From Lytechinus pictus (taxonomy: Eukaryota), in contig NC_087250.1 of assembly GCF_037042905.1 (NCBI RefSeq), positions 22,694,001 through 22,758,000 of the forward strand: 64,000 nucleotides of DNA, in the 5' to 3' direction. Shown here piece after piece: positions 13,801 to 47,726 of the stretch (positions are counted from its first letter, which is position 1; every line of letters begins with the position of its first letter). The translations under genes and the position numbers were made by a program. The notes under the pieces were generated by a model that saw only the letters and a list, made by a program, of their open reading frames with translations, made no database searches and was not told the origin of the DNA.

Positions 13801-16800
13801 TTTAAGGAGTGTTTTAAAGATCAATTATCACTGAATATATGAATTTTCAAACAATTATTGAAACATATTGACCAATGTTATCCATATGAATCTGCAATTT
13901 CTACTTCTGAGTACCGACAGAATATGAATTTGTTTTCATTTGTAGTACACTGACCCTTATGAGAAAAAAAATTGCAGCAAAAAAAAAGTATAGAATTTGC
14001 CAATTTGTGGAATAAGAGCTAATAAAAAAAGGCTTTGATTAATTCCTAATTCTGAATAAATTTATAATTGAGGGATAAAGATGAATTCATGACACACCTC
14101 TACTCTGAGATTTCTTTGTAATTATTATTATTTCTAAGATTTAAATCATTGTTGTAGTGGTGTGTGGAAATGGGGACGGTAAAAACAACTATTCAAATAT
14201 TGAGAAAATGTGAAATATGTTTTACTAGCAGGATATTTTTAATTGTTTTCAAAGTTGTTATTCGTTCGTTGTATGCCCTTTCTGGTTTGTTTTATTTGCA
14301 TGTATTACTGGACACAGAAATAATGGCTTATGGGGAATTTAGACCACGGACAGCTCGTGTCGAAGCTGAGGGTAGGTCCATGAATGATTATAATCAGCTA
14401 TCATTTTCCTTTCCCAAATGAGAAAGCAAGCACGACTAGGTTTAATTTGTATTTTATTACTTAGGAAAAAACAACATGTCTTATCAGGAAATTCAAATAA
14501 ATTTTTAATACATGGCCCATTTCAGAAAGATTTGCAATTATGGTTACTTTCATATTATGGTAACTACCATGGAAATCTTGATTGTGATTGGATAATGAGC
14601 CCAGTTACCATGGTAGTCAAAATTACCATAATGGTAACTTGTTAAGTAGTTGGTAACCATCACGGATATACAGGCCATTGCATGAATTTATATACATGTA
14701 TAACTTTTAAAAATAAATTTTGCATATTGTGTTAAACCTCAATAAATCCCTTCAAAGAAAACACCATTTGACATTAAAAAAAAGTTATTGACAAAGTGTG
14801 TTCAATCTTGCAATGTCTCTTGAAATAAATAATAATAGTGCCCGTTGGAATAGATTATTTCTAGATAGATGGCATTATATGATTACCTAGTATTATTTTT
14901 GCCAGTATTGTCATCATTATTAGTATTATTTATAAGTAGTAGTATTGTAAGTAATTGTTATATTTCACTATGAATTAAAGGAATGTCTTTCAAATAATAA
15001 GGACACCTTAATTGATTTTATTGGCAACAGAAATAGCAGCATATGGAGAATACCGCCAACAAGCACCTAAACAAACTGAGGGTATGTCCACATTAATTCA
15101 TCTAAAATGCATTAGTCTTGTGAACTTACAAAAGTATATTGTCATCAGCTATTTATTCTTTTGGTAAATTTAAATTTTTATTTCTTAGATATCTGGCAGC
15201 CTCATTCACTAATTTTGAAATCTTTCATTAAAAAGGGCCTTTGGAACATGTATCTTCGTTCAAAATTTAGTGAATGGATAACAAAGCTACAGGCAACAGA
15301 TAATATCCCAAAATTTTTAGCAGACAATGCTTTAGAAGTTCTTTGATATTAAAACAAAAACGAAGAAACAAAAAGTGTGTTATGCACCCCATGAAAATAC
15401 GTTTTTATGTTCAATTTCGTAATTTATCTAGTTGAATACATATTTAGTTCATGCCCTTTATATCATAGTTGTTAACAGGGCATATACATGAACATTCATA
15501 TATTTAAATAGATAATTGGAGGCGTGCACCTATAGTGGATACATCAAAACTTATAATAGGCTTCAAATAAAGTTTACTTAATAACTTTGCCTTAAATGAA
15601 ATCCTCTGTCTTCTCTGCATTTCAAAGTCATATTTGAAAAAGATTTGAGTTCAACAACAAATTTGCATGCATTATATAAAAAACATTCATCATGAACATA
15701 AAGAGATTATTATAAGAGTTTTTACTGCTTTATCGTCATATTACTTTGGAAACACAAATACATAATAAGGTATCACTTTTTCATAAGAAAATATTTTGTC
15801 TACTGATCATCTAATCTTATAATTCATAACGTATGAACGGTTACACAAATCAAGAGTATTTCAAATATAATTCTTATTGCAGAAAATCCTGTGTATGGAG
15901 TTGTTGATAGGTCTGCTAAAAAAGCTGCAGCCAAACCTGCTCAATCTGATGGTATGTGTGTCTATGTCCATGGGGTTTTTCCACAGTTTAATAAGACTAT
16001 TGAAATTGATCTTAACTAAATTTAATGAGCAATAGAAAATCAATAAAATGAGATATATTGACTAGCAATAGGATACCCCTTGCCCCCCCCCCCCCCAGGA
16101 ACAGAGAAAAAAAGTCTCACATTTATATAAGAAAAACAGATTGAAGTAGTATTGTCTCCCAATTAAAAATGAATGATGAAAAATACCAAGTTAATCATTC
16201 TCAATAGATATATGTAAAATGAGTATACTTTTATTTAGCAGGAAAAAAATATTGCCCCTGATTTACAATGTAGAACTTACAGGTTGACACATTATGGATC
16301 ATATACATTCAATTGCGCTTAAAAAAACAAAAAGGAATACAAAGTAAATCATTCTCAAATAGATATATATATAAAATGAATTTATTTTTATTTACCAGGA
16401 AAAAAAAAAAATATTGCCCCTGATGTAGAACTTACAGGTTGACACATTATGGATCATATACATTGAATTGCGCTTAGATATATTAATTTTGTTCTACAGA
16501 AATTCCTGAATATGGAGTGATCGATAGATCTAGGAAAAAACCTGCTGCTGAACCAGCTCCTTCTGATGGTAATGTGTGTTTCATTGTCTCGGGGGAGGTT
16601 TCACAAAGCCAAATATTGACCAGAATTGAACTCAACTATACAGGGCCTGATAAGGCTGGTTAAAATGAAGATATGATTCAGTGTATATAGTGAGGCAACA
16701 CACCATTTGTTCCTGTGACAAGTGCTCCGGGCTTAATTTTGTCTAAGATGTAGGGTTAGGGTTGCAATCGGGTTTTATATTAGGTTTAGGGTAGGGTTTA

Positions 16801-19800
16801 GTGTTAAATCCAGGGTTGAAGTTGGGTCTTTCGATTAGTGTGTGGAATTTAGAGTGGAGCAAATGTCATGGAACCATTAGTGATTCTCTGTTCTGTTTCT
16901 TTCTTCCTATTTTTCCCCATGTCACATGGGCGCCTTGAGCATTGACCTGATCGGGCCTTCTCATCCCAAGAGCTGTTTTGCCTGAAATCATTTAAGTTTG
17001 GCCACATATGTTTTGCCTCTTATATGACTCTGAGCTAGATCATTCTTATATCACCACAGAGTGGACATGATGAAACCTTATGAATATTCTGTTGACGGAC
17101 GGTGAATGCTGAATATCTTTGTACAAAAATTGTGTACAATCCATATGAATACAGGATAGGACTTGTTTTCAAGTGCAATCCTTTGCTAGATTATTGTAGA
17201 CATAAGAATCTGGGCCCCTTTGCATAAAAAGTTTCCATTATGGTAACTTTGCCATCCAATGGTAACTACCATGGTAACAATGATCAACAGCCAATCAGAA
17301 TCAAGGATTCCATGCAAGTTACCATTGTATGGCATAGTTACCATAATGGTAATTTTTTAGCAACAGGGCTCAGAATTGATTGAATAGATAGAGAATGATC
17401 AAATTGGTAGAACAGCTGAGAACATAACCCCTATACGTGTACATGCGCACAATGGGTTAAATGCAATTATGTAAACCTTATGTAATGGCATGTGTGTTTG
17501 ACGATGTTTTAATTCAATTCAATGATGAGATGAGTCGGGTGACTTCTTGTGTATGCAAACAAATTGCAGAGTTTTCTTGTGTAGGGTCTCTGCTTACGCA
17601 GTGGCTATTGACTTTGGATTATTATGATGCAAACGCTCATTTATTGTTCAATGGTATGCAATATAATAAGGATGATTACATATGTTCATTACATCATATG
17701 AAGATGATAACTTATCCTATGCATAGGAAGGGGGTACTGCCTTACTCCAAGTTTGGATGCTAGTTGGGATGCTAATTGCTGCTAATTGCTTTCAGGGATT
17801 AAAATTCATTCATAAGAAATTAGAAGAAAATTCCTTGTATGTTGTATTCTTATACAATGTTGGAAACCTATGTATGTAATGGGTCTTAATTGCATGCATA
17901 GGAAATAAGGGGAAAAACCTCATGCATTTATGTATATACATTGTTGAATACATATGCGAGCAATGGGTTAACATTTAACAATGGCTTATTTACAGACCAA
18001 CCGCTATATGGAGTAGTGGATAGAGGAACTAAAAAGCCGTCAGTTCCAGCACCAGTTGAAGAGGGTAGGTCTCTTCGAATTATTGGAATAATAAAACACC
18101 ACATCTATCATAGCAAACATTTTGGCACTCGGTAGTTAATGTAGTTTGCCTCAGTAGATGGCAGATGTATTCTTTGCAGCATTTGAAAGGGTAGATTGTA
18201 TATACCACTCAAGAAATCTAGCTTTAGGATGATGCATAGCAGTGCATGCCACCACATAAGTGTTGTTTGTATAAGAACTTGTGTGGAATATTAGCTCCTA
18301 TACATAATGTGCATTGTATTGAACAAGACATCTATGTAAGCATGTTTAGGGGTGTGAGAGTTTAGATTTTTATCTGATTTCAGATTTTTTTTTCCAGCTT
18401 AATTTCAGCTTATTTTTGGCCTTCCTCTGTACAAAAAGTATGGGAGCTCTTTCTATTTCAGACTTTTTCAACACTATTCAGCTTTTTTCAGATCTTTTTA
18501 TTTGTGACCACTCACACCCCTGCATGTAAGGCATGGTTTACTCTTTCTCATGCCTACATGTATATGTGGATGCTGATGTTTCATTTTCATCATTTGAGTG
18601 AATTTTTAAAGTGACACTAAAAAAAATACTTGAATTGAGTAAAAATTAAGACTGACTTATCTACTCTGAATGTTCATTTGAAATATTTTTTGTGTGGGTG
18701 TCTGTGTGTGTGTTAGCCCTTATTAATTAGTATTTGTGTTCAATGTTGCATATCTTTCCTTTCTCTTCATTTATTCTGATATCTATGAACAATTTATTGT
18801 AAATAATTTGATTAATAACACTTACATGTATATCTTACCAATTTTGAATATGTTTACCTATTACTACACAGTGTTGCAGAATTTCATCTCATAAGTAGAG
18901 TGAGACAATGTGATTGCAGATCTAAATAGAAAGATACTAACTTAATTTTCCGGTTCTATATAATAAACCAGTAAGGAACCCTTTTATTACAAATGTGAAC
19001 TAACTCTTCAATTTCCTTTTCAGGATTGTATGGAGTTGTGAATAAACCAGCTAAGAGCCCTAAGCCGAAGGTTTTGCCGAAACCTGATGGTGCGTTCGTA
19101 TTCACTATATTCTTCTCCTTTCCATCTTTGTAGCTAGAGGGCGACATACAGTTAACTGATCTATTCATTCTTCTTGTATTACTTAAGTGGAAACCAAGTA
19201 TCATTACAAGTCATTTTGGACGATATTTGTGCCAACAATAATATATCTGATGATCATGTATAGTCTGAAAAGAATCAGGCAAATCACTTTTTTATACAAT
19301 GGAAACTGAATGTTTTGTTGAACGATTGTGTGACTCTACTGTTCATACGATGAGTAATTATGTAATCTAGTCAGCATTCCAAATGTCAAATAATTGCCTT
19401 ACTCGAAACATTACAGAGCTGGTGGGTGTTTCGTAAAGCTGTTCATAAAGTTACGAACGAGTTTACGCATGACTGGAACATGTTCTTAGGTCATAACTCA
19501 ATTACATAGGGATATCACATAGCGCAAGAAAGGATCACCAGTCGTGCGTAAAGTCATTTGTATCTTACGAACAGCTTCATGAAACACCCACCAGAATATG
19601 AAAACCATGACTTATTTACATCGTCTCCGTTCAATCTTGCTTTAGTCGAACAGATGTCTGTAGTCCCAAGGTATTGGATGTACGCAGGGTAACCATTCAG
19701 GGTTCCCAGCCCATCAGGGAAATCAGGAAAAAATACCTCAAATGAGGGAAAAATCAGGGAATTTTGATCAGCCCAAAAGTCGAAAGCACGGTAGTCAGTC

Positions 19801-22800
19801 AGACTCTGTTATGTTCTGTTGCTTATCAAAACAACATCCATTGATTGACTGGTTATGGTGGTACTAATTAGTTTCACATTGTTTTATACTGAAAATACAT
19901 GTAATTCACTGTGACAATTTAGAACAAATGCGAAACTGGGAATGGTTTTACTATTTATCAGGGAAAAATCAGGGAATTTTGTTTTCTTGAAAAGCTTTAT
20001 TTGTGTATGGAAATGAATGGAAGGCCAAGTGTTAGTTAACATTTTGTTCAAGATGTTTTCATATGTGTTTATGTGTGTGTATGCTTGCCAAATAATACTC
20101 ACTTCTTTTAACCCATATATAAGTGTTAATTATTGAAACGTAAATTGTAACCTCATTTTCCCCATGTGTACAACAGCGGTATATGGCGTCGTCAACAAGC
20201 CGAAAAAATCTCCAAAACCTTCACTGTCAACGACTGGATCTGAACTTGAGGGTTTGTCAAATATTTGTTACTTCGACTCTATCATACAACCCACAATGCA
20301 TTGCAAGGCAAACCATATATTCATGCTGTCAGTCGTATTGTGATCATGTGTCGAAATGACAGGCAGACTCATTTTTTGTACACAAATATTCCAATATTTA
20401 AGAATGGAAGAACATCTGGGCCCCCCCCCCCCCCCGTTTTACATTGTACAAAGAGTTACGATTGATCCAATCAATCGTAACTCTGGAAATCCATCAGTGT
20501 CATAATTTTTTCTACAGGAAATTTGCAAAATGTCCTTTGTAAACAAAGGAGATCACACCAAATTGTCAAGAAATCAATGAATTTATGGATATACACTCAT
20601 ATCCAGAATTAAAAAAAAATAAAAAAATTTATAAGTTGACTTTTCTGGCTTTCCACAGTTACGATTAATTGGATCAATCGCAACTCTTTGTAAGACGGGG
20701 CCTGTACTCCAACGATGTTGCAGGGCAAAGCCTGTTCATCGATCAAAATAGAGATGTTTATTGCTGCTCTCCTTTAGTCAAAATGACACAGATGCGCTAC
20801 TTACATGTATTGGCAGTTGTTCACTGTGGTACATGTATTTTACAATGGATCGGTTGTTTTATTCTGACAGTGCATGCATTATCTTTGAAGATGAGGCAAA
20901 ATTAATCCCCCCCATTAGACATTACCACACACACTGAGAAAAGTTGTGCATGATGGACCATATTCGCTGTTCTGTGCCCATTTTGTTTCCTGATATCCGT
21001 TGAGAAATCTAAAGGGACAAATTTTACCGTTTTCTAACAGCTCAAAAGGGCTAAAAAGGAGAGAAAATAGCTGGTTGCTCTCTGTGATAATTTCTATTGA
21101 AACCTAAAAATCATATTCTATTGGAAAGAAGAAAGGAGAAAAATGCAATTTCTTTTACCACATGCTATCTTGCAATGCATTGCTATGTAATTAAATATCA
21201 CCTTTATCTCATTTCTCATTGGTTTTTTTTCCATTCTATCTTTACACGTGTGTATTCTTCACCTTCCTTTGTTATTTGGCATTGGACTGTTACAAGTTTG
21301 ATCATCACACATCGTCATATTTTTCATAAATAAATTTCAAATGCAATTCTGTCAAATTAAATTTAAAAGATTTCTTTCTATCAAGCAACCTTTTTATTAT
21401 AAGGGATGTTGCAAGAAAATATTTACAAAGAACTGCATATTTCTATTGGCGATTTTGTGATTTTTATTAGCTGTAGCAAATCAGTTCACATTCATAGAAG
21501 CAGGTTCGCATTTCATAAAACTTGGTTTACAAAAAATCTGATAACAGAAAAGATGATAAGAAATTTGCAACTACAGCTTGAAGCTACTAAAATGATTAAT
21601 TTTGATTGGTTGATTATAAACTTTAATAGAAATATTACATTTATTATGATGCCTAGTTTTCATGAGACTGGACCGACATCATTAATTAATTGCAAAACAT
21701 ATGATTGATTTTAAGCCTCAATTTGCAGTTGATTGTAAAGTTCTTGCAACGCTCCTTTAGAGATATATTTCCCATTGCATTTAATTGAATCATATGTATC
21801 ACATGCATGGAAAATGAGACCAGGGGGGTGTTTCACAAAGATTTAAGTCTGACTTAAATTGCAGTTAAATGTGATGCGTATCTCAAATGCAACAGCCAAT
21901 CTAATTGATCAATACGCAGTAGTGCGTGTCCTCTTGGCATGATCTGGGGGGTGTTTCACAAAGATTTAAGTATGACTTACTGTAGAGTCGCACTTAAATA
22001 CCGAGCTGCGTACGGTATGAAAGGCTTGACTGCATTGGTCAGATCGTGTCGTGAGGACGCGCATTATTGCGTATCTATCAATAAGATCGCGCGTTGCATA
22101 TTTAAGTGCGACTTAAGTCACGCTTAAGTCTTTGTGAAACACTCCCCTGACCAATCAAGGTCGTCATGCTTTTTATACCATATGCAACTAATCATTTAAC
22201 TGCGAATCTAAGGGGGTGTTGCAAGAAAATATTTGCAATCAATCGCAAATATTCTGTTACAATTTTACAGTTGATTGATCACTTTTAACTTAAGCAAATT
22301 GGATTACACTCCTTGTTTCATGGAGCAGATTAGCAATCAATCGCAAATTTGCAATTTATTGCCGGCATATGCTTGATTTTGGGAACTAAAATAGACTTGC
22401 AATTAATCGCAAGTTTCTTGCAACGCCCCATAAGTCATACTTTAATCTTTTTGAAACATCCCCCCAGGAATGTCATGAGCTCCTTTTTCATTCCCAATGC
22501 TTTTGCTTTGACATATGCTATTAAGTGTGAATGTGAAGCTTACATGAAGCGTGTGTGGAGTGTGAAGAAACGTACATTGTTAAACATGTGAACGTAGCTC
22601 TGGCTTTTGCTTCTACACAGGTATTACAGGTACGGCAGGAATGTGGAAGAAAGCAGACAAGAACCTAGGGAACGATGGTGTGTTCACATTTACTTTTGTT
22701 GCTTCTGCTCTTTTTGCTATTCTCTCTGCACATCTCTTCAAAATTGAATAATGATAAATCAAATATTAGATACAGCACTGAAAAGGTTTATCAAGGGCCT

Positions 22801-25800: not shown

Positions 25801-28800
25801 AGGGTAACTGCGCTTCATTGTTGTAGAATGCTTCACAGATTTATGAGAAAGAAAATGATGAAGACTATTGTCAAGTATAATTGAGATTAAATTACATGCA
25901 TAGGGTAATTCTGATGGAGGAAGTGAAAAGCTAGATTAAAGCAAGTATAATTTTTATTGAAAAGTAATTATGTGCCATATAATTTTCAAGTGTTTCTAAG
26001 TGGTAAGTAATTAAGGGCTTTGACTCGCATCCAATTAATTGCACGTTTAGAGAGACAGGAAAGAAAGATGAAAAACTATAAGAAAGAAACATTAAAACAA
26101 AGATCCCCTGCTGACTTTTGTCGTTTGGAAGGTCGACTTAAATTCACGCTTGACCTTTAACCTGTGACCTTTTAACCTTTGAGCTGAAGAAACTTTGAAT
26201 TTATTTCCTTGTACTAGATATTCACGCCGTTGTAGACAAACCTGGTAAGACTGGAGAAGAGCAGAAATTAACTGAAGATACGCCTGAGCCTGAGGGTGCG
26301 TTGTATATAAGGCATCATTTCAAGTTTTGCTCATACATTATATATATATACATGTATATACACACAAATTGGGAATGCATGATGCTTTAAACTTATTTGC
26401 AGGTTTATATATTGATCATAAAATTATATTCATCATGTACATGTACGTGGATATATACAAAATCAGAATGCATGATGCTTTAAAATTGCAGGTTTATATA
26501 TACATAGATCATGAAATTATATATACAGTTTACATGTCCGGAATAGGAAAGCGCAATAGATCATAAATTAATGCTTGAATTAATCATGCAATTGCCCCCC
26601 CCTCCCCCCAAAAGAGCTGTGTTTTTTTGTATTAATTCTACATTCATGTATATTGGAAAGGGAATGCATGATTTGGATAAGTCATGAAATTTTGTGGAAA
26701 ATTGAACCGCATGGTGCTTCTGGGGTTCCATAAAATTGCTCCGGCAACAATTGCTCCAATGGAAATTTTGCACGTCAAAAGCCAAACATAAACCTAACGT
26801 CCAAAACTAAATAAACCCTACTCCTCTAAATATCTTTACATTATTCTGAACAAAAAACATCTATTACAATCCTAATGCTAACCCTATGCCCTCTGAGGTT
26901 TTAAGACTGGATCAATTGTCGCAGGAGCAAATGTCGTGACACCGCTTTGGGATGGCAGGTTTATATATAGGTCATGAAATTATATAGAACAATTTTATAT
27001 AGTTATGGAAATGGGTGCTTTGGAATATCTGGTTTATTATTCATAAAAGTAATATTTTTTGTACAATGTTTATATGGGAAATAGAAATGCATGCTTTAGA
27101 AATAGCAGGTTTATGAATAAATGAAGAAATAGTATATGGGCCACTAAGGATATAAAAAATGAAAAGGAAATGTGCTTTAGAACAGCATATTTATAAATCA
27201 TAGGGTAATACAAGTATATATGGGCAATTCCATAAAACAATCAACCTTTTTGTACGTCCGACCCCATTTTTCTCAAGTTTATCTTCACTTCATAAACTGA
27301 CCAAGTCATGGTCATTTGAGAGCATTACAGACTGTTCAAAAACAAGAAATCAGAGACAGAAAATTTCATGAAGATCCCACTTACATGGGGTCGGAGGTAC
27401 ATATTTTATGGAATTGCCCAAATAGGAAATGATCTTGCATGGTTTAGAATATTAGATATATTAATATTGATAATACCTACATGTAGGACACTGACAATAT
27501 ACGAAATACGAATTCATAATGCTTTAGAATAGCAGGTCTATAAATGAAAAAATTGGTACATGTATGTAACATATACAGGTGAGTTTACCTACCCTTTTAA
27601 AGTCAAATATTCATCCAAATCAAAGCAATTTTTTTTGCACAAGATTATGTGTTTTATAACTCAAGTCAAATTTATCCTAACTTTTTGAAATTTCTGTGGG
27701 CCCAAAAAATTTTGACTTGGGCAAAGAAACCTGTATATACTACAGATTATAAAATAACAATTTTACAAAGGAAATCAGTATGCATGCTCTGAAAAATCAT
27801 AAACTAATATGGGACACAAACTTTATTTACTTTAAATTATAAAAAAATTAAGTGCATGATGCTTTAAGAATTGCAGGTTTATCAATCAACTAAGTTGAGA
27901 AAGGAATGCAAAATAGTCCATAATTGCAGGTCGATTGATATATATGGAACAAAGTGTGCTTAAAATTCATGCTATCAAAAATAACCAAAAGTTCCCGGAT
28001 GATGTTACTTGTGTGACCCTGCAAATTTCTGGAAAGTTGTTTGAGTCACACATCGCTGAATAAGAAGTAGAATTTCTAGTTCCGCGCACAAAGTAAATGG
28101 CAAATTCACAAGGAACTTCTGGTGATTGGTCATATAAGAATTGCAGGTTTTAGAACTAACCTTTACTGACTTTCAACTTGTTCTCTTGCTGTTGCCATTC
28201 TCTTCATTACCTAGACTCTTTCTGGTTTGATGAATATTGGTGCTAGTGTTTAATTACCTCTTAAACATCCTACTTCTTTAACAAGGGGGTGTTTCACAAA
28301 GATTTAAGTGTGACTTAGAGTAGTACTTAAATGCCTAGTTGTGTGCGGCATTAAAGACAACACCTCATTGGTCAGATCATGCCAAGATAACACACACTAC
28401 TGTGTATTGATCAATAAGACTGGGCGTTTCGTATCATGTACATGTCAAAATTCATGTGCAACTCTAAGTCATATTTATACTGTATATTTGTGAAACAACC
28501 CCAGGGGCCCGTTGCATAAAACTTTTGCCATAAAAAATCTCTGGCAAACAAAATTATGCCATTGAAAATTACACATTAGAAAACTCTGGCAAAAAATTTG
28601 CCAGAGTTTTCATGGCAAAAGTTTTATGCTATGGGGCCCAGGAGTGTGATTTTTCAACTTTTTAACTCTTTAACATGTCAATTTTTTTTCTTGCCTTGAA
28701 AAGAGACTCTTCTGTATGAAATGTCTCATCCTTACCAGTATATTATTTTCCTCATCACATATTTCAAATTCTTTCCATATTTTACTAATGCATGAATTTA

Positions 28801-31800
28801 TAGAAATATATAAAAATTATTTGCAATTGTTATTTGACTTTTATTTATCCCATGCATGTTAACAAAGTTTTAATAAATTTAAGAGTTGACATATATTCGC
28901 AATTACTTCACATTTTTTTCTTTGCTATCAAGCCATTGATTTCAGTTATACATGTAGATTCTAATGACAAATATGTGCTTCGTGCTCTTATAAAAGGGCC
29001 AACTTATAAAAGTACATTATGCCCTGTAAATTGGCAAGGCATGTGGACATTGAAATCACTATCAAAAAGTGCAAATTGGCAACACTTTAGTGAAATGTTG
29101 TGATATTCATCAATTTAAAGTTATATAATATCCATATTTAATTTTTTTTCTTCAAGCTATGTCCATGTCAGACGGTAAAGATAATAGTATGCAGTGCTTA
29201 GAAACATTTGTATTAAGCGCTTTTAAATCTTGGGTATTATTAAAGATTAGTTTGTAATTATAAAAGATTTAAAAAGAATTATTGTATGTCTATTTTATCT
29301 TTTATGATTATAAAAATCATTGCCACTTTGCGGAATAAATGATTAATTTAAATCTGAGAATGGGTTAAAAGCAGTTCTTTGAATTGTCATTGAGCAGGTA
29401 ATACAATGTCAGTTCATTTGTTCCTTATTATAGATGTGTATGCTACGGTTGATAAGCAACGCAAGCCGACGGAGCAAAATCCCTCCCCGGACGACCCTCC
29501 TTCCGACGGTCTGTTTAGATCTTTATTTAAATTTAACTATAATAGATTTATTAATCTCATAGTTCTTTCTATCTTTCTGTGATATCACTCTAATTCCCTT
29601 TTCTCATAATCGGTTTCCTAATGACTCCCATGGCTTCTTCATCTCATCATACTACAGTGGCGGATTCAGGCAGGGACGCAAATGGTGCACGCCCCTTCCT
29701 CTATATATTAAGAACTGACCATTGAACATACCTATTAATGTAGCTAAATCTAGTTTCAAGTTTCAAAATTTTTTGATCGAAATCCACACATATTGGATCA
29801 TTCTCAATTTTACAAACACTTATACGGACAATTACAGTGAGACACAAAGTTACAAATCACATATATAAATAAATGTAAATACAAAATACAGATTATTATG
29901 GTTAGCAATTTTCATGTTGAGCCCTGAAGTATATGCGATAACATATTCAAATCAATAATTGACCTCTTATAGCATAGGTAAAATTTTATATTTTTCTTTT
30001 ATGAAATCTATGAAGAAAACCATCATCTGTGCCACTACCCCCCTTTGTAAACCCCTCCTGTATTCCAAAAAAGAGGGGAATCCAGGCAGGGAGACAAGGG
30101 GGTGCATGCCTCCTCTAATTTGGAGGATTGCCAATGAAACATACCTACTAATGTAGCTTAATCTCTCAGAAAATTGTCACCTGCACCTCCTATATTTCCA
30201 AATTTGCTTTTTATGCCCCCTCCCTCCTCCCTCCTCTATTCCAAGCTAGAGGGGGATCTTGAGAGGGTTGCAAGGGGTGCACCCCCCTTCTTTAGTTTGA
30301 AAATTACCCATTAGTGTATCTAAATGTTATAAAAGTGCAGTCCGTGCCCCCCTCTATTTCCATATTTGCTGATTGCGCCCCCCCTCTATTCCAAAATCCT
30401 GTATCCGCCACTGTCATGCTAACTTTCTTGAAGTATCTCGCTCGTCTTCATTTGAAATCAAATTTAATGTGTAATAACTTTATCTTAGATAGATGTTGAT
30501 CTCTCACCCTATAGAATAGCTGAGTGAAACATCCTTTTAAAGTATATATCCATTCAAAACAAATTGTAGTGTGTCATGCATTTATCAAGAATAGATGTTG
30601 ATCTCTCACCATATTATAGAACAGCTGGTTGAGAGCATTTTGATAGAATAGATTTTGTGATTACACTGTACCTGCCTAATTTTTACACTACATGAATATA
30701 CGATGACCTGCCACCGCTTGAACTGGTTTCAACTGGTTTCCTCAAGTTTGATCCAGCTCAAAGTGGTTTCTCCATGCCACATTCATTTCTCATTAAAGCC
30801 ATTCATGTGCATTGGCATGTTTCATTAGGCATGTGTATACATGTAGATATAAACATAAACATTCCATTATATGATGGCCTCCCACTGCTTACACTGGTTT
30901 CAACTGGCTCCCACTGGTTGGATCCAGCTGGAACTGGTTTCTGCTACCCCATTTTTCTCTGCGCAGCCATCTTGTACAGTAATCGGCATGAACCTGTCTT
31001 CTTTGTATCCAATCTAATGTAAAAGCACGAAGTGTAATAGAATAATATAGTTCTTACAAGTTGTATCATGAAACTCATAAAGTCATGCATGACTGTATGA
31101 ATCCATTACGTACTGGAGCCTAATGATCCCTTTACAAAATCTGGTTATTACAGAGTCTTGTACAAAAAAGAATGTGTATTATCGGTAAAAAGTGGAAAAA
31201 AACATGAACATGTGTGCAAATACAGACCTTGCTTCTTGCACATTTCAATTTCACATTTCAATTCAAATTAGTTAACTGAGTACAGCCATGCTGGATAGAT
31301 AAGTCTCTAAGAGCTTCTATATTCATGGCATAGGCTAAGCCCAATCCATGGCTTCAAATAAGCAGTTGTCGTATTTTGATAAAATGTCACCCAAAACTCT
31401 AGAGCATCCCACTTCTGCATTTTATACTCAAGTAATTCCTTCTTTGTAATCTTATGAATTGCTTCATTCTTACGTCTGTTCATTCTCACACATTGAACAT
31501 CTTAATAAAATACACTTCTACGGATCTTATGTATGAATTTTTCAATAATGCATATCATGTTTTTACTCTTGCGAATGAAGGCGGGGATCCCATTTACGGG
31601 GTCGTCGACAGGCAACGTGATAGAAAGCCGTCAAACAGAGATCTGGGTGGTCGTATTTTGGGCAGTCCGACTGAGGTTGGCGACGATTCCAGCTTTGGGG
31701 GTAATTTAGTTTGATTTGAATAAAAACAAGCAAACAAACAAGCAAGCAAGCAACAAATATAATGATAAAGGAATAAATGGTTAAAAAATACTCATGCAGC

Positions 31801-34800
31801 TTTCTCCAAGTTTTCTTTAAAAATTGTATTTCGATGCATCCTATCGCGTCTTTGGATAAACGCTTCTTGTGTGTTTTTGAACGAAAATGGAACTCCTTAG
31901 AGAAATGAAATATGAATGTGATAAGCTAATGACATCAGTGTGTTTTGGTCAGATGCAAAAGATGATGTGTTATTCAGTGGTGTTTTGTTTTTATTTTCAG
32001 CTTCATTTAAGCTTATTTTTGGCTTTCCTCTGTACAAAAAGTATGGGAGCTCTTTCTATTTCAGACTTTTTCAACACTCTTCAGCATTTTTCAGATCTTC
32101 TTATTTGTGACCACTCACACCACTGGTTATTATATACATGTACCTGAAATTATCTCATTTTCACAATAACTAAAGAACTGTTTGAGGGATCAACTGCAAA
32201 CTTGGACCATATTTGAATATGGGGATGGCTATGATCACAGAGTTTATTCTCATGAGAGATAATAGAATCATAAAAGAATTGCCCAAGTATGAAATTATGC
32301 TTTTCAACAAATATATATGCTTAGTTCATCAATATATAATGATTCTTGTAAGCGTTTAGAAGTTACGATTGAGCTGTATCATCAAAGTTTTTTGAAAATT
32401 CAAGAAGCTAATTTTGTAATATATTTTGGCTCTTGCTATTTAATGGCATACAGTACATCTAGCCATGGTATTATACGTTTCTTCTTTGGCTTTCTGTTAA
32501 AACTGGCTATCAATTTTATTCCTTTGACTGCTAAATATAACTTTTTTTGTGCACATGAATACAAATTTAATTTCATTTTATAAGCTAAGATAATGAAAGT
32601 TTGTAAAGATAAGGGCAATAGATGAGAGAGAGAGAGAGAGAGATGGGGGGGGGGTGTGGGATCAGAGAAAGAATGAAAAGGGGGTATTGAGGCTGAGTTA
32701 TGAGATTTTCTGTCTTTTCATTCTTTACATACATGGATGTTTCTACTGTTTTTTGCTTTGCCGGGTATAACTTTTCCACTCTTGTGCAAGAGATGCAAAA
32801 GTTATTTTCTCTAACATCCACTTCGAAAGTTACTTTGTAAATAATGTATGCTGTGATAGTTATTTTTACATGTACATAAAAAATATGTTGTAATAAGGCA
32901 CAGCGATTCTTTTCGAGTATACCATATTAAACTGATAAGATAACTTTGTTAAGAATATACTCTGCTCGCATAACCTGAGCTATGTCAGTCATAAGCCTTT
33001 GGAGTGCATGAGGGAATTCTTAAATTTGTTGCATGGAATTTGATCATAAATGCAAGGAAACTATGATATTTTGGTTGTGGAACTGAGGACTTTGCATTTT
33101 GATCAGTTCCTATTTTGGTTTTTATATAATTGTGAAGAAAGAAATGGGGTGATGAAAAAAATTACTAAAAAGATAATTTAGTTGGTAGTGTTTGATGCAT
33201 CATTCGTTGTCTGCTGAGGTGTGTACGCCAAGACTAAAGATTCCCTCTTAAATTCCCTTCTTTGTGCAGTATGTTATGTAACACCATTTCATTTTTCAGA
33301 TCATGCACATGAAATGCATGCTACTGAATGTTAATCAATGATATTCCGCATTGAATATCATGTGTATTGGCAGAAAACCTCACTTTTGGCCCGGTCATAT
33401 CGTTCCGTGCAAGCCTTGCGTGCGACTTGCAGGTGACTAGTTGTGCTACCCGTAGGCTGCCTACAGGCTACCTGCATTGACAGTATCTTGCACGTATTAC
33501 ACTCGGATGCCCGCACAAGCGCACGCAAGTCTGATTTGCGCAAAACTTTGTTGCAGGTGAGTTGTGGATGATTGCCAGCAACTTTCCCGTAAGGCTTGCA
33601 TGGAACGATGTGACAGGGCCTTTAGATTTAAACTTAAATCTTAGTGTGAAGCACGTACTGGTATTTAAACAATGCTAAGAAAGCGATGTCTTCTCTTTCT
33701 ATCTCTCTCTTCCTCACACCCTTGCCTTCTTTCTTTGTACATGTATGTCTGTCTTTTTGTATCTCTCTGTTTTGAAGAATGTTTATATATTTCTTTGTCC
33801 CAACAGGCATATTCAACTATTCCTCTTGGTAAAACAGTGTATCTGCCATATCTTTTTTTTCTGTTGCATTTCTCTTGAAAGTGTGCTATTAATCATTTAT
33901 CAATTTTGCACTGATGTGTTTTTGTGTACCCGTATGTGAAGTTCTCTCATTTTCATTCTAACAGACTTACAGTTACATGTATAAGTATAATGCGTGTTAT
34001 ATAAATGATACATATGTATATCTAAATGTATCAATGATATCCCCATTAATGTTTTGGTAAGTATACACTTGATACCCTTACAGAATAATAATCATTCTTT
34101 TTCAATCATCTCTTTCAATTGACCCTCATGACTTGAAAATAAACTTTAAAACTTCAGAGCGTGATTATGGTAGATGGGCCCCAATCTCCCAGCCAAGCAG
34201 CAGTGTCCATACCTCAAATTGTCTTGAATTTGCTTCTGATCAAATCAACAGATCTGCCGACATTCTCGGTCATGCTGCATAACAGACAATGGTTCATATA
34301 TGAACAAAGGCCGGTAGATTAAGGTGAAGTAATTGTTATGAACTTTGAAGTTTCTGTCTTTTGTTTGTAAACAGCTCTGTATTCAGAGGTCAACAAGGGT
34401 TTCAAAACATCCACGCCAGATACGAATCGTTCATTGGAGGGCTCAGGTCAGTACCCTATTCATTCACATACATTTATATGTCGCTGCAATCTGGGGAAGT
34501 ATTTCATGAACCTAATAGTGGCTTTCACTGACCAATCTCTTCTGAGCCAATCGGATGCAAGTATTTCAGGAGCTTATATCAGTTGTCAGTGAAAATTAAT
34601 CACTGGTTGTTTCATGAAAGGCTCCTCAGATTTTTTAAAGTTCTATTTCCTATTCCCCCTCTCCTTGCTATTGCTCATTTCTCTTTTCCATATTACTATG
34701 TTTTATCCCTCTTGCTCTTCATTTATCTGGGTTCTTTTCCTTCTTTTTTTATCTTGCTTTCTGTTGCTTTCTCTCTGTCTCTCATATCTCTTCTTCCATT

Positions 34801-46800: not shown

Positions 46801-47726
46801 TTGTTATCGTTTACAATTATGGTTTTACATCATTCATGATTTGCTTTCACTCATGGTCAAATAAATAAAACTGTCTTGCTTTGATAAATGAATTGCTTGG
46901 GTAATATCTCGCTTTCGGTAAAATCATGATGCCCAAAAAATTCAACTGAAAAATTATCTATCCTTCTAAACCTGAAAATAAATTCTCAATACACATGCAT
47001 GAATACCACAACTTTACATTTTTTTTAAAAATCACATCTGCCAACACACTTCCTAAACCTATGTGTGTGTGTGTATATATGCATATGCACTACCTTTACC
47101 TCACCTGCTACACCCATGCTATCCCGACCTACCCTCCTCAGAAATTAGACCTTAGCAAATTCCCAGTTCGTATGGAGGGGTTGATACGCCCCATGGGGAG
47201 CGTGAACCGCCCCAACGACCTTCCTGTCTGGCACCACCGCCGCACCCCTGCCCAAAATAACCACCCGCCCCCCTTTGCTAGCCCTGAGAGCGACGAAGGG
47301 GCCGGCTACGCCAGTCCGGCCGACGCCCTCCCCTATGATCAAGTCCGAAAGGTAATCGGAAGCAGCTTTAGGACCGGGAGTAGCGGAGGAGGGGGTCCCC
47401 AGTCGGGAATTTACTCGCAGCCCCACGATCACCTGCCTCGCGGCACTGTAAGTTGGCTCTGTTTTGCACTGCTTGTGGTGTGCATCCTGTTCATCAATCA
47501 ATCCATACATTAATTGAGAGAAAGACGGGGAGAGACAGATAATGAGAGACAAAGGCAAGCATAGACACACAGACAGACAGGCAGACAAAGAGAGATAGAG
47601 AGAGAAAGAAAAATATACTGATAGACACAGCATACACAGACAGATATACCCACACTGACAGATACACACACAGAGATACAGACATAGACAGATAAGAGAG
47701 AGAGAGACCCACAGACATGGACAGAC

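What the first reader, a model, noticed from the sequence alone, without database searches (positions are those of the whole stretch)
15883..34446. The repeated motif is an EPIYA/Cbp-like Y-x-x-V-[DN]-[KR] site, suggesting multivalent Csk or SHP2 docking
Seen: NPVYGVVDR, PEYGVIDR, QPLYGVVDR, GLYGVVNK, AVYGVVNK, DVYATVDK, DPIYGVVDR, ALYSEVNK. Known: PAG/Cbp binds Csk SH2 through AMYSSVNK; Helicobacter CagA EPIYA-A (EPIYAKVNKK) binds Csk and EPIYA-C (EPIYATIDD) binds SHP2; PECAM-1 has TVYSEV. Inference: eight tandem Src/Abl substrate sites could couple Src feedback inhibition to Rho inactivation on one chain. This parallels CagA repeat-number variation but is built from exons.
Basis: partly seen in the sequence, partly recalled or inferred. 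Interest (0 to 1): 0.8.

Follow-up and report, generated by a model that had tools for sequence, protein, structure and literature searches.

The report
Splice-tunable tyrosine-motif array in p190RhoGAP
A sea urchin version of the Rho-inactivating protein p190RhoGAP carries eight conserved copies of a short tyrosine motif, each on its own tiny skippable exon, that look like phosphorylation-dependent docking sites, but their phosphorylation and binding partner remain untested.

Summary
All eight peptides are present on the + strand. The finding's coordinates 15883-34446 are exactly the first base of the first motif exon and the last base of the last.

The window is the Lytechinus pictus p190RhoGAP (ARHGAP35/5-like) gene, residues ~995-1830 of isoform X3, matched letter for letter. 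Each motif lies in its own GT-AG mini-exon of 66-120 nt. All are multiples of three and phase 1-1, within the low-hydrophobicity middle domain. They lie upstream of the conserved RasGAP-docking tyrosines (exon 47142-47447) and the RhoGAP domain.

The 15 annotated isoforms carry 8, 6, 5 or 4 copies. The array is copy-for-copy conserved in L. variegatus (9) and S. purpuratus (8). Looser copies occur in sea stars, sea cucumber, crinoid and acorn worms.

The extended motif is aliphatic-Y-[GAS]-x-[VI]-[DN]-[KR]-x-x-K. It resembles the Cbp/PAG Csk site (ISAMpYSSVNK), CagA EPIYA-A (EPIYAKVNKKK) and p140Cap EGLYA/EPLYA. Phosphorylation and Csk or SHP2 binding are untested. It does not fit ITIM or YxxP rules, and six of eight copies have Gly at +1.

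Verdict: a real, conserved, probably phosphotyrosine-docking array whose partner is open.

The parts
14318..14371 (+). Mini-exon (54 nt, phase 1-1) encoding EIMAYGEFRPRTARVEAE. It is an upstream degenerate copy whose YGEF resembles the Src optimal substrate peptide.
   Evidence: Exact match to P0004 1102-1119. Unique GT-AG junctions. Src peptide AEEEEIYGEFEAKKKKG read in PMC5876402.
15031..15081 (+). Mini-exon (51 nt) encoding EIAAYGEYRQQAPKQTE, a second upstream degenerate copy. S. purpuratus has three such copies.
15883..15951 (+). Motif mini-exon 1 (69 nt): ENPVYGVVDRSAKKAAAKPAQSD.
16500..16568 (+). Motif mini-exon 2 (69 nt): EIPEYGVIDRSRKKPAAEPAPSD.
   Evidence: A contig of run X1 covers exactly this exon with other sequence on both sides (record 1).
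17996..18064 (+). Motif mini-exon 3 (69 nt): DQPLYGVVDRGTKKPSVPAPVEE.
19024..19089 (+). Motif mini-exon 4 (66 nt): GLYGVVNKPAKSPKPKVLPKPD. Present in all 15 isoform models.
   Evidence: A contig of run X5 joins it directly to exon 20177-20251 (record 26).
20177..20251 (+). Motif mini-exon 5 (75 nt): AVYGVVNKPKKSPKPSLSTTGSELE. Present in all 15 isoform models.
   Evidence: records 2, 21, 26.
22621..22677 (+). Mini-exon (57 nt) without the motif: ITGTAGMWKKADKNLGN. S. purpuratus has a Tyr here (GMYKEAD).
26218..26295 (+). Degenerate motif mini-exon (78 nt): DIHAVVDKPGK... with His (CAC) where L. variegatus (DIYAVVDK) and S. purpuratus (DLYGTVDK) have Tyr. Skipped in models X12, X14 and X15.
   Evidence: The RNA-type contig of run X1 carries the same letters (record 6, 0 other letters).
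29434..29508 (+). Motif mini-exon 6 (75 nt): DVYATVDKQRKPTEQNPSPDDPPSD.
   Evidence: record 7.
31581..31700 (+). Motif mini-exon 7 (120 nt): GGDPIYGVVDRQRDRKPSNRDLGGRILGSPTEVGDDSSF. Skipped in model X15.
34375..34446 (+). Motif mini-exon 8 (72 nt): ALYSEVNKGFKTSTPDTNRSLEGS.
   Evidence: records 8, 24, 31.
42246..42305 (+). Mini-exon (60 nt): MVDNVLYESYTSQKSPAPS. It carries a different Tyr motif ([WMF]-x-[DN]-N-x-aliphatic-Y, NPxY-like) that is conserved across bilaterian p190 proteins.
43830..43892 (+). Mini-exon (63 nt): MVDNVLYASYSSQMSPASQT. It is a duplicate of the previous exon found in Lytechinus; S. purpuratus isoform X2 has one copy.
   Evidence: 80% nt identity over 69 nt to exon 42246.
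45234..45385 (+). Exon (152 nt) with MTYASVQDH and MLDNILYAPY.
47142..47447 (+). Exon (306 nt) with GYASPADAL and GIYSQPHDHL. These are the counterparts of vertebrate p190A Tyr-1087 and Tyr-1105, the p120RasGAP SH2 docking sites. Skipped in models X12 and X14.
   Evidence: The pTyr-1105 peptide EEENIpYSVPHDST was read in PMC6938330.
60346..60561 (+). RhoGAP-domain exon containing the GIYRVSG arginine-finger stretch.
   Evidence: Pfam PF00620, E=1.1e-16..

Best explanation
The region is the middle domain of the Lytechinus pictus p190RhoGAP gene. The domain is low in hydrophobic residues and presumably disordered. It is built from about 17 symmetric (phase 1-1, multiple-of-three) mini-exons that arose by old tandem exon duplication.

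Eight of these exons each encode one copy of an extended short linear motif: aliphatic-Y-[GAS]-x-[VI]-[DN]-[KR]-x-x-K, followed by a Lys/Pro-rich tail. A ninth copy has His in place of Tyr in this species.

Most likely the tyrosines are phosphorylated by Src-family or Abl-type kinases and then act as a multivalent docking array for an SH2 protein. The number of sites would be set by cassette-exon inclusion (4 to 8 in the annotated isoforms). The best candidate partner is Csk, because the motif matches the Cbp/PAG and CagA EPIYA-A pattern Y-x-x-V-N-K.

Shown here: gene identity, exon anatomy, splicing of several of these exons in RNA-type contigs, conservation, and the motif likeness. Inferred: phosphorylation, SH2 docking, and the partner's identity.
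For: Gene identity:
- 26 exon blocks match P0004 (L. pictus ARHGAP35-like isoform X3) letter for letter.
- The RhoGAP Pfam hit has E=1.1e-16.
- The precomputed p190 domain set is listed for P0004.

Anatomy:
- 25 of 25 junctions resolved uniquely as GT-AG.
- All 17 exons from 6746 to 43892 are multiples of three.

Tunability:
- In L. pictus, 15 models carry 8 (9 models), 6 (3), 5 (2) or 4 (1) copies.
- L. variegatus models carry 6-9, S. purpuratus 1-8 and Patiria 0-2.

Expression and splicing: contigs of runs X1, X2 and X5 stop at or bridge exact exon borders. One joins 19024-19089 directly to 20177-20251 (table 8).

Selection:
- Only 2 pairs among 13 exons plus flanks are still alignable at DNA level. 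Apart from one short direct repeat (71 nt, 86%) within the intron between exons 15883 and 16500, no intron sequence aligns between different exons' flanks.
- Synonymous codons differ between copies.
- One-to-one copies are kept in three species.
- Columns that were not used to pick the copies are also constrained: -1 is L/V/I in 21/25, +1 is G/A/S in 25/25, +8 is K in 21/25.
- Core positions are class-conserved in 31/32 cells against 125/171 spacer cells, p=0.002.

Kinase fit: aliphatic -1 and Gly +1, as in the Src peptide AEEEEIYGEFEAKKKKG. The two upstream exons read EEI-x-A-YGE[FY].

Partner fit:
- The Csk SH2 domain binds ISAMpYSSVNK with Kd 0.5-1 uM (PMC5071372).
- YSSV is the Csk site of Cbp (PMC3492796).
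- CagA EPIYA-A is EPIYAKVNKKK (PMC2768901), and EPIYA-A/B bind Csk (PMC3593179).
- p140Cap EGLYA and EPLYA bind the Csk SH2 domain (PMC3561454). The urchin copies read EGLYG and QPLYG.

Independent occurrence: a HMMER scan of 1.84 billion proteins with the array found only 4 hits. Three are unrelated, unnamed proteins with arrays of Y-[SDGA]-V-V-[DN]-K-x-x-K-K. Two of these have a hydrophobic membrane-span-like stretch (my reading of the sequences). A relative (P0140) reads DIYSVVNKPAKPAPP, against the urchin GLYGVVNKPAKSPKP.
Against: - No phosphorylation or binding data exist for these sites.
- By plain identity the motif is not more conserved than the spacers between orthologues (37/56 against 101/171, p=0.43). 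The spacers are themselves 59% identical, so this test has little power.
- The core columns of the logo were fixed by the search pattern, so their invariance is by construction.
- 6 of 8 copies have Gly at +1. The verified Csk ligands have Ser or Ala there.
- 0 of 8 copies are EPIYA or EPxYAxV.
- One copy has lost its Tyr in L. pictus.
- The isoforms are automatic gene models. The read laying showed splicing but no exon-skipping joint among the rows displayed.
- The language-model likeness of P0134 to PAG/LIME scored 0.81, which is below the tool's 0.9 line. The urchin array itself gave no usable hit.
Confidence: 0.55

Rival explanations
1. The array docks the tandem SH2 domains of the SHP2/Corkscrew-type phosphatase, in the manner of EPIYA-C/D or paired ITIMs. 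Neighbouring phosphotyrosines would be read two at a time.
For: - The tyrosines of the first five copies are 23, 23, 21 and 22 residues apart. That spacing could span two linked SH2 domains; the 23-residue spacing of the PECAM-1 ITIMs is recalled, not checked.
- CagA EPIYA-C/D (EPIYATIDD/F) binds SHP2 despite Pro at -2 (PMC3593179).
- DVYATVDK resembles YATID.
Against: - 0 of 8 copies have S/I/V/L at -2, so the ITIM rule is not met.
- +1 is Gly in 6 of 8 copies, whereas SHP2 ligands have a beta-branched or small aliphatic residue there (recalled).
- The +4/+5 pattern [DN][KR] and the basic tail match EPIYA-A and Cbp, not EPIYA-C/D.
Confidence: 0.12
2. The copies are extra docking or priming sites for the partners p190 already has, namely p120RasGAP SH2 domains or the SH2 (and SH3) domains of Src-family kinases. 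Together they would form a p130Cas-like substrate domain that supports processive phosphorylation, with no link to Csk.
For: - In protostome and amphioxus p190 orthologues the counterparts of the Tyr-1087/1105 pair read Y-A-x-V-x-D-A (for example DYAQVKDA, DYASVQDAL, EYASVRDA). A Val at +3 is therefore native to p190 docking sites.
- The array lies directly upstream of those sites.
- The motif fits Src-type substrate preferences.
- The tails are Pro/Lys-rich and could be SH3 ligands.
Against: - The solved RasGAP N-SH2 complex places Pro-1108 in the +3 pocket (PMC6938330). The urchin keeps two YxxP sites in exon 47142-47447 for that role.
- 0 of 8 array copies have Pro at +3.
- None has the acidic +1/+2 of the Src SH2 motif YEEI/V.
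Confidence: 0.15
3. The motif works without phosphorylation. Either it is a Yxx-hydrophobic or other peptide ligand read in its unphosphorylated state, or the Lys/Pro-rich tails are the real functional units (SH3, lipid or actin binding) and the Tyr block is a structural part of that ligand.
For: - Constraint extends beyond the Tyr to +4, +5 and +8 (D/N, K/R, K in 21/25).
- The L. pictus copy with His for Tyr keeps VVDK and is still included in 12 of 15 models.
- The unrelated proteins share the basic tail as well.
Against: - Tyr is kept in 25 of 26 orthologous copies across three species. The His is a single-species change.
- The closest verified look-alikes all act through phosphotyrosine.
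- p190 is a cytosolic protein, so it is not a usual client of adaptor-complex sorting signals (general knowledge).
Confidence: 0.12
4. The repeats are a neutral by-product of exon duplication in a tolerant disordered linker and have no specific function.
For: - Disordered segments tolerate duplication (argued in PMC3593179).
- Copy number differs between species.
- Plain identity of motif and spacers is similar.
Against: - The introns no longer align, and only 2 exon pairs align at DNA level, yet the amino-acid pattern persists in 8-9 paralogues in each of three species.
- D/N and K/R swap within class only (31/32 cells).
- Similar motifs occur in sea stars, sea cucumber, crinoid and hemichordates.
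Confidence: 0.06

Closest known systems
Vertebrate p190RhoGAP-A (ARHGAP35) middle-domain sites Tyr-1087 and Tyr-1105, which dock the p120RasGAP SH2 domains
   Same: Same gene family and same flexible region between the pseudoGTPase domains and the RhoGAP domain. Both are Src/Abl-type tyrosine sites. The urchin keeps the counterparts GYASPADAL and GIYSQPHDHL in exon 47142-47447.
   Different: The array is additional to that pair. It has Val/Ile rather than Pro at +3, is present in 8-9 copies, and each copy lies on its own skippable exon. The two vertebrate orthologues examined show no such copies.
Cbp/PAG1 Csk-binding site (ISAMpYSSVNK)
   Same: Y, a small residue at +1, Val at +3 and Asn-Lys at +4/+5. 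Three of the eight urchin copies read V-N-K, and all eight read [VI]-[DN]-[KR].
   Different: Cbp is a palmitoylated transmembrane adaptor with one such site. Here the sites are on a cytosolic RhoGAP, in 8 copies, mostly with Gly at +1. Binding is untested.
Helicobacter pylori CagA EPIYA segments (A: EPIYAKVNKKK; B: EPIYAQVAKKV; C: EPIYATIDDLGGP)
   Same: Tandemly duplicated tyrosine segments in a disordered region, with a variable repeat number. EPIYA-A shares Y-x-x-V-N-K plus a basic tail.
   Different: CagA is a bacterial effector whose repeats expand by recombination within one reading frame. Here the protein is an animal's own, each repeat is an exon, and the number is set by splicing. 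0 of 8 copies are strict EPIYA or EPxYAxV.
p140Cap (SRCIN1) EPLYA and EGLYA motifs, and the Pragmin EPIYA motif
   Same: These are endogenous animal EPIYA-like sites that bind the Csk SH2 domain after phosphorylation. The urchin copies read QPLYG and EGLYG.
   Different: p140Cap has Ala at +1 and no V-[DN]-[KR] after the Tyr (EPLYAAFPG, EGLYADPYG). There are two sites or a single site, not an exon array.
Unnamed proteins P0134/P0140 (adaptor-like) and P0135/P0136 (with a hydrophobic membrane-span-like stretch), found with the array as query
   Same: Arrays of Y-[SDGA]-V-V-[DN]-K-x-x-K-K. P0140 reads DIYSVVNKPAKPAPP against the urchin GLYGVVNKPAKSPKP.
   Different: They have no RhoGAP or other Pfam domain above cut-off. 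Their organisms are unknown. The PAG/LIME likeness is only a weak language-model lead (0.81). Whether this reflects common descent or convergence is open.
p130Cas substrate domain (about 15 YxxP sites; recalled, not checked here)
   Same: Many repeated Src-substrate tyrosines in a disordered scaffold region.
   Different: The Cas motifs are YxxP for Crk/Nck-type SH2 domains and are not, to my recollection, one-per-exon cassettes.

Membership tests
p190RhoGAP (ARHGAP35/ARHGAP5/RhoGAP190) family | N-terminal GTPase domain, FF region, two pseudoGTPase domains and a C-terminal RhoGAP domain on one chain | tested here: met
   Precomputed Pfam set PF00071, PF16512, PF19518, PF23083 and PF00620 for P0004. 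The window exons equal P0004 residues 995-1830. The RhoGAP exon has E=1.1e-16.
p190RhoGAP (ARHGAP35/ARHGAP5/RhoGAP190) family | A pair of docking tyrosines (Tyr-1087/Tyr-1105 type, Y-[AS]-x-P-x-D) in the flexible region before the RhoGAP domain | tested here: met
   GYASPADAL and GIYSQPHDHL lie in exon 47142-47447. They align by eye with the vertebrate dYaepidtl and iYsvphdst contexts.
EPIYA / EPIYA-related motif class | Glu-Pro-Ile-Tyr-Ala, or the wider EPxYAxV | tested here: not met
   0 of 8 L. pictus copies. The -3 to +1 residues read NPVYG, IPEYG, QPLYG, EGLYG, DAVYG, EDVYA, DPIYG and GALYS. Only variants accepted in the literature as 'related' (EPIYG, EGLYA) come close. The crinoid orthologue has one exact EPVYAVV.
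EPIYA / EPIYA-related motif class | Segment duplicated in tandem within an intrinsically disordered region | tested here: met
   8-9 copies are spaced 21-44 residues apart. 79% of residues 1102-1387 are P, G, K, E, D, S, Q, R, N, T or A. Disorder is inferred from composition only.
EPIYA / EPIYA-related motif class | Tyrosine phosphorylation by Src-family or Abl kinases, followed by SH2 binding | not testable with these tools
   There are no phosphorylation data. A sea-star oocyte phosphoproteome supplement holds the p190 orthologue as a protein but none of the four motif strings searched. The files were cut when stored.
Csk SH2 docking site of the Cbp/PAG type | pTyr, a small residue at +1, Val/Ile/Met at +3 (YSSV), followed by Asn-Lys in Cbp | tested here: inconclusive
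   8 of 8 copies have G/A/S at +1, V/I at +3, D/N at +4 and K/R at +5. However, 6 of 8 have Gly at +1, which is not seen in the verified ligands.
Csk SH2 docking site of the Cbp/PAG type | Phosphorylation-dependent binding to the Csk SH2 domain | not testable with these tools
   No sea urchin Csk sequence could be obtained, and the complex predictor does not model phosphotyrosine.
ITIM (as in PECAM-1 TVYSEV) | [S/I/V/L] at -2 together with Y-x-x-[I/V/L] | tested here: not met
   The -2 residues are P, P, P, G, A, D, P and A, so 0 of 8 meet the rule. The consensus itself is recalled.
RasGAP/Crk-type YxxP docking site | Pro at +3 | tested here: not met
   0 of 8 copies have it; +3 is Val in 7 and Ile in 1. 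Pro-1108 fills the +3 pocket in the solved complex.

The most novel reading that the evidence does not exclude
Sea urchin p190RhoGAP is both a RhoGAP and a Cbp/PAG-like Csk-recruiting scaffold. Src-family kinases would phosphorylate a splice-tunable array of up to eight Y-x-x-V-[DN]-[KR] sites (nine in L. variegatus). Csk would dock on them and shut Src down exactly where Rho is being switched off. The strength of this feedback would be set by how many mini-exons are included. On this reading, the Y-x-x-V-N-K-basic code shared with Cbp/PAG, with unnamed adaptor-like proteins and with CagA EPIYA-A is an old animal docking code that bacterial effectors copy. It would be an exception to the reported scarcity of such promiscuous motifs in (mammalian) host proteomes.
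Probability: 0.25. Interest if true: 0.65.

Novelty: new variant of a known kind. Interest (0 to 1): 0.45.

Why it matters
p190RhoGAP is the main route from Src and Abl kinases to Rho inactivation. In vertebrates this coupling runs through two tyrosines.

Here the same protein carries, in addition, a conserved array of eight or nine further tyrosine sites, and the number of sites can be changed by exon skipping. If these sites are phosphorylated docking sites, this would be a clear natural case of signalling valency tuned by alternative splicing of duplicated motif exons. It would also place an endogenous animal counterpart beside the bacterial EPIYA repeat effectors.

The hypothesis is cheap to test: phosphopeptide pull-downs and anti-phosphotyrosine proteomics in an organism where eggs and embryos are available in bulk.

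If the sites are not phosphorylated, the finding reduces to a lineage-specific repeat in a disordered linker of an already annotated gene.

Tried and rejected
- **RNA runs.** No RNA holder was listed; the runs are only guessed to be RNA.
- **Read laying.** The displayed joint table is dominated by intronic high-copy repeats. No exon-skipping joint was among the rows shown (86 joints and 14,461 pieces were not shown), so alternative splicing rests on gene models only.
- **Raw motif counts.** They are not above chance in six frames or genome-wide. I therefore dropped count-based significance and used context instead.
- **Extra YGVVDR word 37.7 kb beyond the window end (G000:C6:22795690).** I fetched it. 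It lies in a 27-codon open stretch without exon context and was treated as chance.
- **P0134 against the window's own genome.** No match with this query.
- **HMMER scan with the array.** Only 4 weak hits, best E=3.6e-06. The urchin family's representative is a short isoform lacking most repeats.
- **Word-based search for short fragments.** It returned one S. purpuratus fragment and P0140. No further echinoid species were gained.
- **Protein Atlas with the array.** No usable hit.
- **Pfam on P0134-P0137.** Nothing above cut-off.
- **Paper searches.**
  - 'p190RhoGAP' + 'Csk': 75 papers, 15 listed. None of the listed titles or abstracts reports Csk docking on p190.
  - 'sea urchin' + 'p190RhoGAP': 8 papers, none on this array.
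  - 'pYxxV' + 'Csk': 2 papers, irrelevant.
  - 'sea urchin' + 'phosphoproteom' + 'phosphotyrosine': 21 papers, 12 listed, none usable.
  - 'sea urchin' + 'kinome' + 'Csk': listing only, not read.
- **Sea-star oocyte proteome and phosphoproteome supplements (PMC8370769).** 0 occurrences of 7 motif strings. The p190 orthologue is present as a protein. The files were cut when stored.
- **Considered and rejected on the sequence.**
  - ITIM/ITSM: the -2 rule fails in 8 of 8 copies.
  - Nck-type YDxV: 0 of 8 copies.
  - YxxP: 0 of 8 copies.
  - YxN and YxxM: 0 of 8 copies.
  - These consensus rules are recalled, except YxxP and YEEI/YSSV.
- **Complex prediction with Csk or SHP2.** Not attempted. No sea urchin SH2 protein could be obtained as one unaltered sequence, and phosphotyrosine is not modelled.

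Full report
**1. The observation**

A six-frame scan for Y..[VI][DN][KR] gives 10 matches in the window.

The count alone is not significant. Block shuffles of the window give 8.8 +/- 2.6 matches. In the whole 812-Mb assembly the DNA word for YGVV[DN][KR] occurs 21 times, against 50 for the reversed control.

What is far from chance is the arrangement:
- All eight lie in 299 residues of one protein. Residue shuffling expects 0.019 matches, with at most 2 in 20,000 shuffles.
- 5 of the 21 genome-wide words lie in this one 15.7-kb stretch.
- Every motif starts 6-14 nt after an AG acceptor and is followed by a GT donor.

**2. What the locus is**

The open frame at 60300-60590 is a RhoGAP domain (PF00620, E=1.1e-16). 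Its best database matches are 100% identical 'rho GTPase-activating protein 35-like / 5-like' isoforms of Lytechinus pictus.

Twenty-six blocks of the window match residues 995-1830 of isoform X3 (P0004, 1889 aa) letter for letter. The contig length recorded for that protein equals that of the window's contig.

The protein carries the full p190RhoGAP domain set. The gene is therefore the sea urchin p190RhoGAP, a protein known in vertebrates as a Src/Abl substrate. Its flexible middle region holds Tyr-1087 and Tyr-1105, the docking sites for the SH2 domains of p120RasGAP (PMC6938330, abstract and passages).

**3. Anatomy**

All 25 junctions between the 26 blocks resolve uniquely with GT-AG. The 17 exons from 6746 to 43892 measure 78, 90, 39, 54, 51, 69, 69, 69, 66, 75, 57, 78, 75, 120, 72, 60 and 63 nt. 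All are multiples of three, and all begin and end in phase 1, so any of them can be skipped without breaking the frame.

Of the 12 mini-exons between 14318 and 34446:
- Eight carry the strict motif.
- One (26218-26295) carries the motif with His for Tyr (DIHAVVDK). L. variegatus has DIYAVVDK and S. purpuratus DLYGTVDK.
- Two (14318-14371, 15031-15081) read EEI-x-A-YGE[FY].
- One (22621-22677) has no Tyr.

Downstream follow three exons with a different motif ([M]-x-D-N-x-L-Y). Next comes exon 47142-47447 with GYASPADAL and GIYSQPHDHL. By their contexts these are the counterparts of vertebrate Tyr-1087 and Tyr-1105. The RhoGAP exons come last.

The finding's coordinates are exactly the first base of motif exon 1 and the last base of motif exon 8.

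**4. Copy number is variable**

The 15 annotated L. pictus isoforms contain:
- 8 strict copies (X1-X7, X12, X14),
- 6 copies (X8-X10),
- 5 copies (X11, X13), or
- 4 copies (X15).

Exons 13606-16568 are dropped as a block. Exons 17996, 26218 and 31581 are dropped singly.

Models of L. variegatus carry 6-9 copies, S. purpuratus 1-8 and the sea star Patiria 0-2. These are automatic gene models.

The one read-laying run showed contigs of three runs (X1, X2, X5) that stop at or bridge exact exon borders (table 8):
- Exons 16500, 20177, 26218, 29434 and 34375 each appear with other sequence attached.
- One contig joins 19024-19089 directly to 20177-20251.

These exons are therefore spliced as modelled. 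However, no skipping joint was among the rows displayed, and the runs are only guessed to be RNA.

**5. Is the motif under selection?**

Evidence that the duplications are old:
- A comparison of 13 exons with 300-nt flanks finds only two exon pairs still alignable. These are 15883/16500 (78% over 83 nt) and 42246/43830 (80% over 69 nt). Between different exons' flanks no intron sequence aligns, apart from one short direct repeat (71 nt, 86%) within the intron between exons 15883 and 16500.
- The motif codons differ synonymously between copies: GTT/GTG/GTA/GTC, GAT/GAC, AGG/AGA/AAA/AAG.
- The copies are one-to-one between Lytechinus and Strongylocentrotus.

Across 25 copies from three urchins, several columns that were not used to select the copies are also constrained:
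- -1 is L/V/I in 21 of 25.
- +1 is G/A/S in 25 of 25.
- +2 is V in 17 of 25.
- +8 is K in 21 of 25.

The invariance of Y, +3, +4 and +5 in that table is by construction.

In the orthologue comparison (L. pictus against S. purpuratus), plain identity of the motif block is 37/56, against 101/171 for the spacers. This is not different (p=0.43). The four core positions keep their residue class in 31/32 cells, against 125/171 for the spacers (p=0.002). The single exception is the L. pictus His.

The orthologue test has little power at this distance, because the spacers are themselves 59% identical.

**6. Wider distribution**

Looser copies ([DE]-P-x-Y-[GA]-x-[VI]-x-K-[PK]) occur in the p190 middle domain of several other groups:
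- Patiria: edpaYgevkkp, kdpvYgevkkp, kepvYgvinkk, eeptYgvvnks.
- Asterias: tepvYgtvqkp.
- Apostichopus: pspiYaqinkp.
- Antedon: peniYatvtkp, cepvYavvep.
- The acorn worms Glandiceps (addvYagvnkp, drqvYadvrkp) and Ptychodera (dndvYesvdrk).

The two vertebrate orthologues and the amphioxus orthologue examined show none.

The motif type therefore looks ambulacrarian and is expanded in camarodont sea urchins. Orthology of individual copies outside the urchins was not established.

**7. What the motif resembles**

All comparators below were verified in papers.
- The Csk SH2 domain binds the human Cbp peptide ISAMpYSSVNK with Kd 0.5-1 uM (PMC5071372, passages).
- YSSV is the single Csk site of Cbp/PAG, and YEEI/V are its Src SH2 motifs (PMC3492796, passages).
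- CagA EPIYA-A is EPIYAKVNKKK, B is EPIYAQVAKKV and C is EPIYATIDDLGGP (PMC2768901, tables).
- EPIYA-A/B bind Csk and EPIYA-C/D bind SHP2. EPIYA segments are duplicated in disordered regions. EPxYAxV is reported as under-represented in mammalian proteomes (PMC3593179, abstract and passages).
- p140Cap EGLYA and EPLYA are needed for Csk SH2 binding and are Abl substrates (PMC3561454, abstract and passages).
- The standard Src substrate peptide is AEEEEIYGEFEAKKKKG (PMC5876402, passages).

The urchin copies share Y, +3 V, +4 N/D and +5 K/R plus a basic tail with Cbp and EPIYA-A. They share EGLY and QPLY with p140Cap. They share an aliphatic -1 and Gly +1 with the Src peptide. The two upstream exons read almost like that peptide (EEI-x-A-YGEF).

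Against a simple membership:
- 0 of 8 copies are EPIYA or EPxYAxV.
- 6 of 8 copies have Gly at +1.
- 0 of 8 copies satisfy the ITIM -2 rule.
- 0 of 8 copies have Pro at +3.

**8. An independent hint**

A HMMER scan of 1.84 billion representative proteins with the 286-residue array gave only four hits, with E between 3.6e-06 and 3.9e-04. One is the S. purpuratus orthologue. Three are unrelated, unnamed proteins:
- P0134 has ten or so copies of [ED]-[DEL]-[ILM]-Y-S-[VI]-V-[ND]-K-[PT].
- P0135 has seven or eight copies of S-M-Y-[DAG]-V-V-D-[KRE]-T-K-[KE]-S in front of a hydrophobic stretch.
- P0136 starts with a hydrophobic stretch followed by YATVDKYKKK and three copies of MYSVVDKGAKKKK.

That the hydrophobic stretches are membrane spans is my reading of the sequences, not a tool result.

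A relative of P0134, P0140, reads DIYSVVNKPAKPAPP, close to the urchin GLYGVVNKPAKSPKP. The language-model atlas places P0134 nearest to PAG/LIME1 clusters at 0.81. This is below the tool's reliability line, so it is only a lead. None has a Pfam domain above cut-off.

The same extended motif is thus used in arrays on adaptor-like proteins elsewhere. That fits a docking code rather than a quirk of one gene.

**9. Most likely mechanism**

The steps, and how far each is supported:
- Shown: the array is a set of conserved, spliced, individually skippable motif exons in the Src-regulated region of p190RhoGAP.
- Inferred (about 0.55): Src-family or Abl kinases phosphorylate the tyrosines, which then dock an SH2 protein multivalently, with valency set by exon inclusion.
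- Inferred, weaker (about 0.25-0.3): the partner is Csk. This would give local negative feedback on Src at sites of Rho inactivation.

Rivals are SHP2-type tandem SH2 docking, extra docking for RasGAP or Src-family SH2/SH3 domains, a phosphorylation-independent ligand, and a neutral repeat. Their evidence is set out in the Rival explanations section.

**10. Novelty and score**

The gene is annotated and its family is well known.

The array itself, its exon-per-motif build and its conservation were not found in print in the searches made:
- Searches turned up nothing on it (listings only).
- One search found no sea urchin phosphotyrosine dataset.
- A sea-star oocyte dataset holds the orthologue as a protein but none of the motif strings, in files that were cut when stored.

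I rate it a new variant of a known kind, with interest 0.45. It is a clean, testable case of splice-tunable motif valency with a suggestive parallel to bacterial EPIYA effectors, but its function is unproven.

Noticed in passing
window 47142-47447: The 306-nt exon that carries the two RasGAP-docking-type tyrosines (GYASPADAL, GIYSQPHDHL) is itself skipped in isoform models X12 and X14. Both models keep all eight array copies. That would give a p190 form with the array but without the classical RasGAP sites.
   Followed up: partly
orthologues P0050, P0051, P0083, P0120, P0116, P0041: In brachiopod, nemertean, spider, horseshoe crab and abalone p190 both counterparts of the Tyr-1087/1105 pair read Y-x-x-V-x-[DN]-[AT], for example dYaqvldav, dYasvqdal, eYaqvkdav and, in spider and horseshoe crab, Yavvhnal. 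In amphioxus one of the two does (eYasvrdai), while the other has Pro at +3 (qYacphdal). In vertebrates, urchin, sea cucumber and crinoid both have Pro at +3. The +3 residue of the conserved pair thus seems to differ between protostomes and most deuterostomes.
   Followed up: no
window 42246-42305, 43830-43892, 45234-45385; orthologues: A second Tyr motif, [WMF]-[VI]-[DN]-N-x-[LIV]-Y, is conserved in p190 middle domains across bilaterians. In sea stars and Ptychodera it reads as a full hydrophobic-x-N-P-x-Y, for example wvdndvYes, widnrlYdr, fvnnplYsa and mvrnpiYds. It looks like a PTB-domain type NPxY site. Motif exon 1 also reads NPVY.
   Followed up: no
window 47142-47447 (residue 1543 of P0004): Lytechinus has LPYDQV, a YDxV context of the Nck-SH2 type (recalled), between the two RasGAP-type sites. 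S. purpuratus has LPFDHV there, so this Tyr is not conserved.
   Followed up: no
window 8007-8039(-), 20646-20678(-), 35461-35493(+), 50012-50044(+), 57303-57335(+), and further copies seen: An interspersed repeat family in the introns, on both strands, keeps an open-frame-like stretch GPVLQRVAIDPINRNYG[KR]PA...SKYFLDMMYIHTF. Intron bins around 19.3-22.6 kb and 25.3-25.9 kb reach summed contig depths in the thousands to tens of thousands.
   Followed up: partly
S. purpuratus P0018 residues about 1137-1190 against window 14318-15951: S. purpuratus has three near-identical EEI-x-AYGEYSGPTTKA-x-PE units where Lytechinus has two diverged ones followed by the NPVYGVVDR exon. This shows recent lineage-specific turnover at the 5' end of the array.
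   Followed up: no
L001 (G000:C6:22790700-22800699), position 4991: A lone YGVVDR-coding word lies 37.7 kb beyond the window end on the same strand, in a 27-codon open stretch without clear exon context. It is probably chance.
   Followed up: yes
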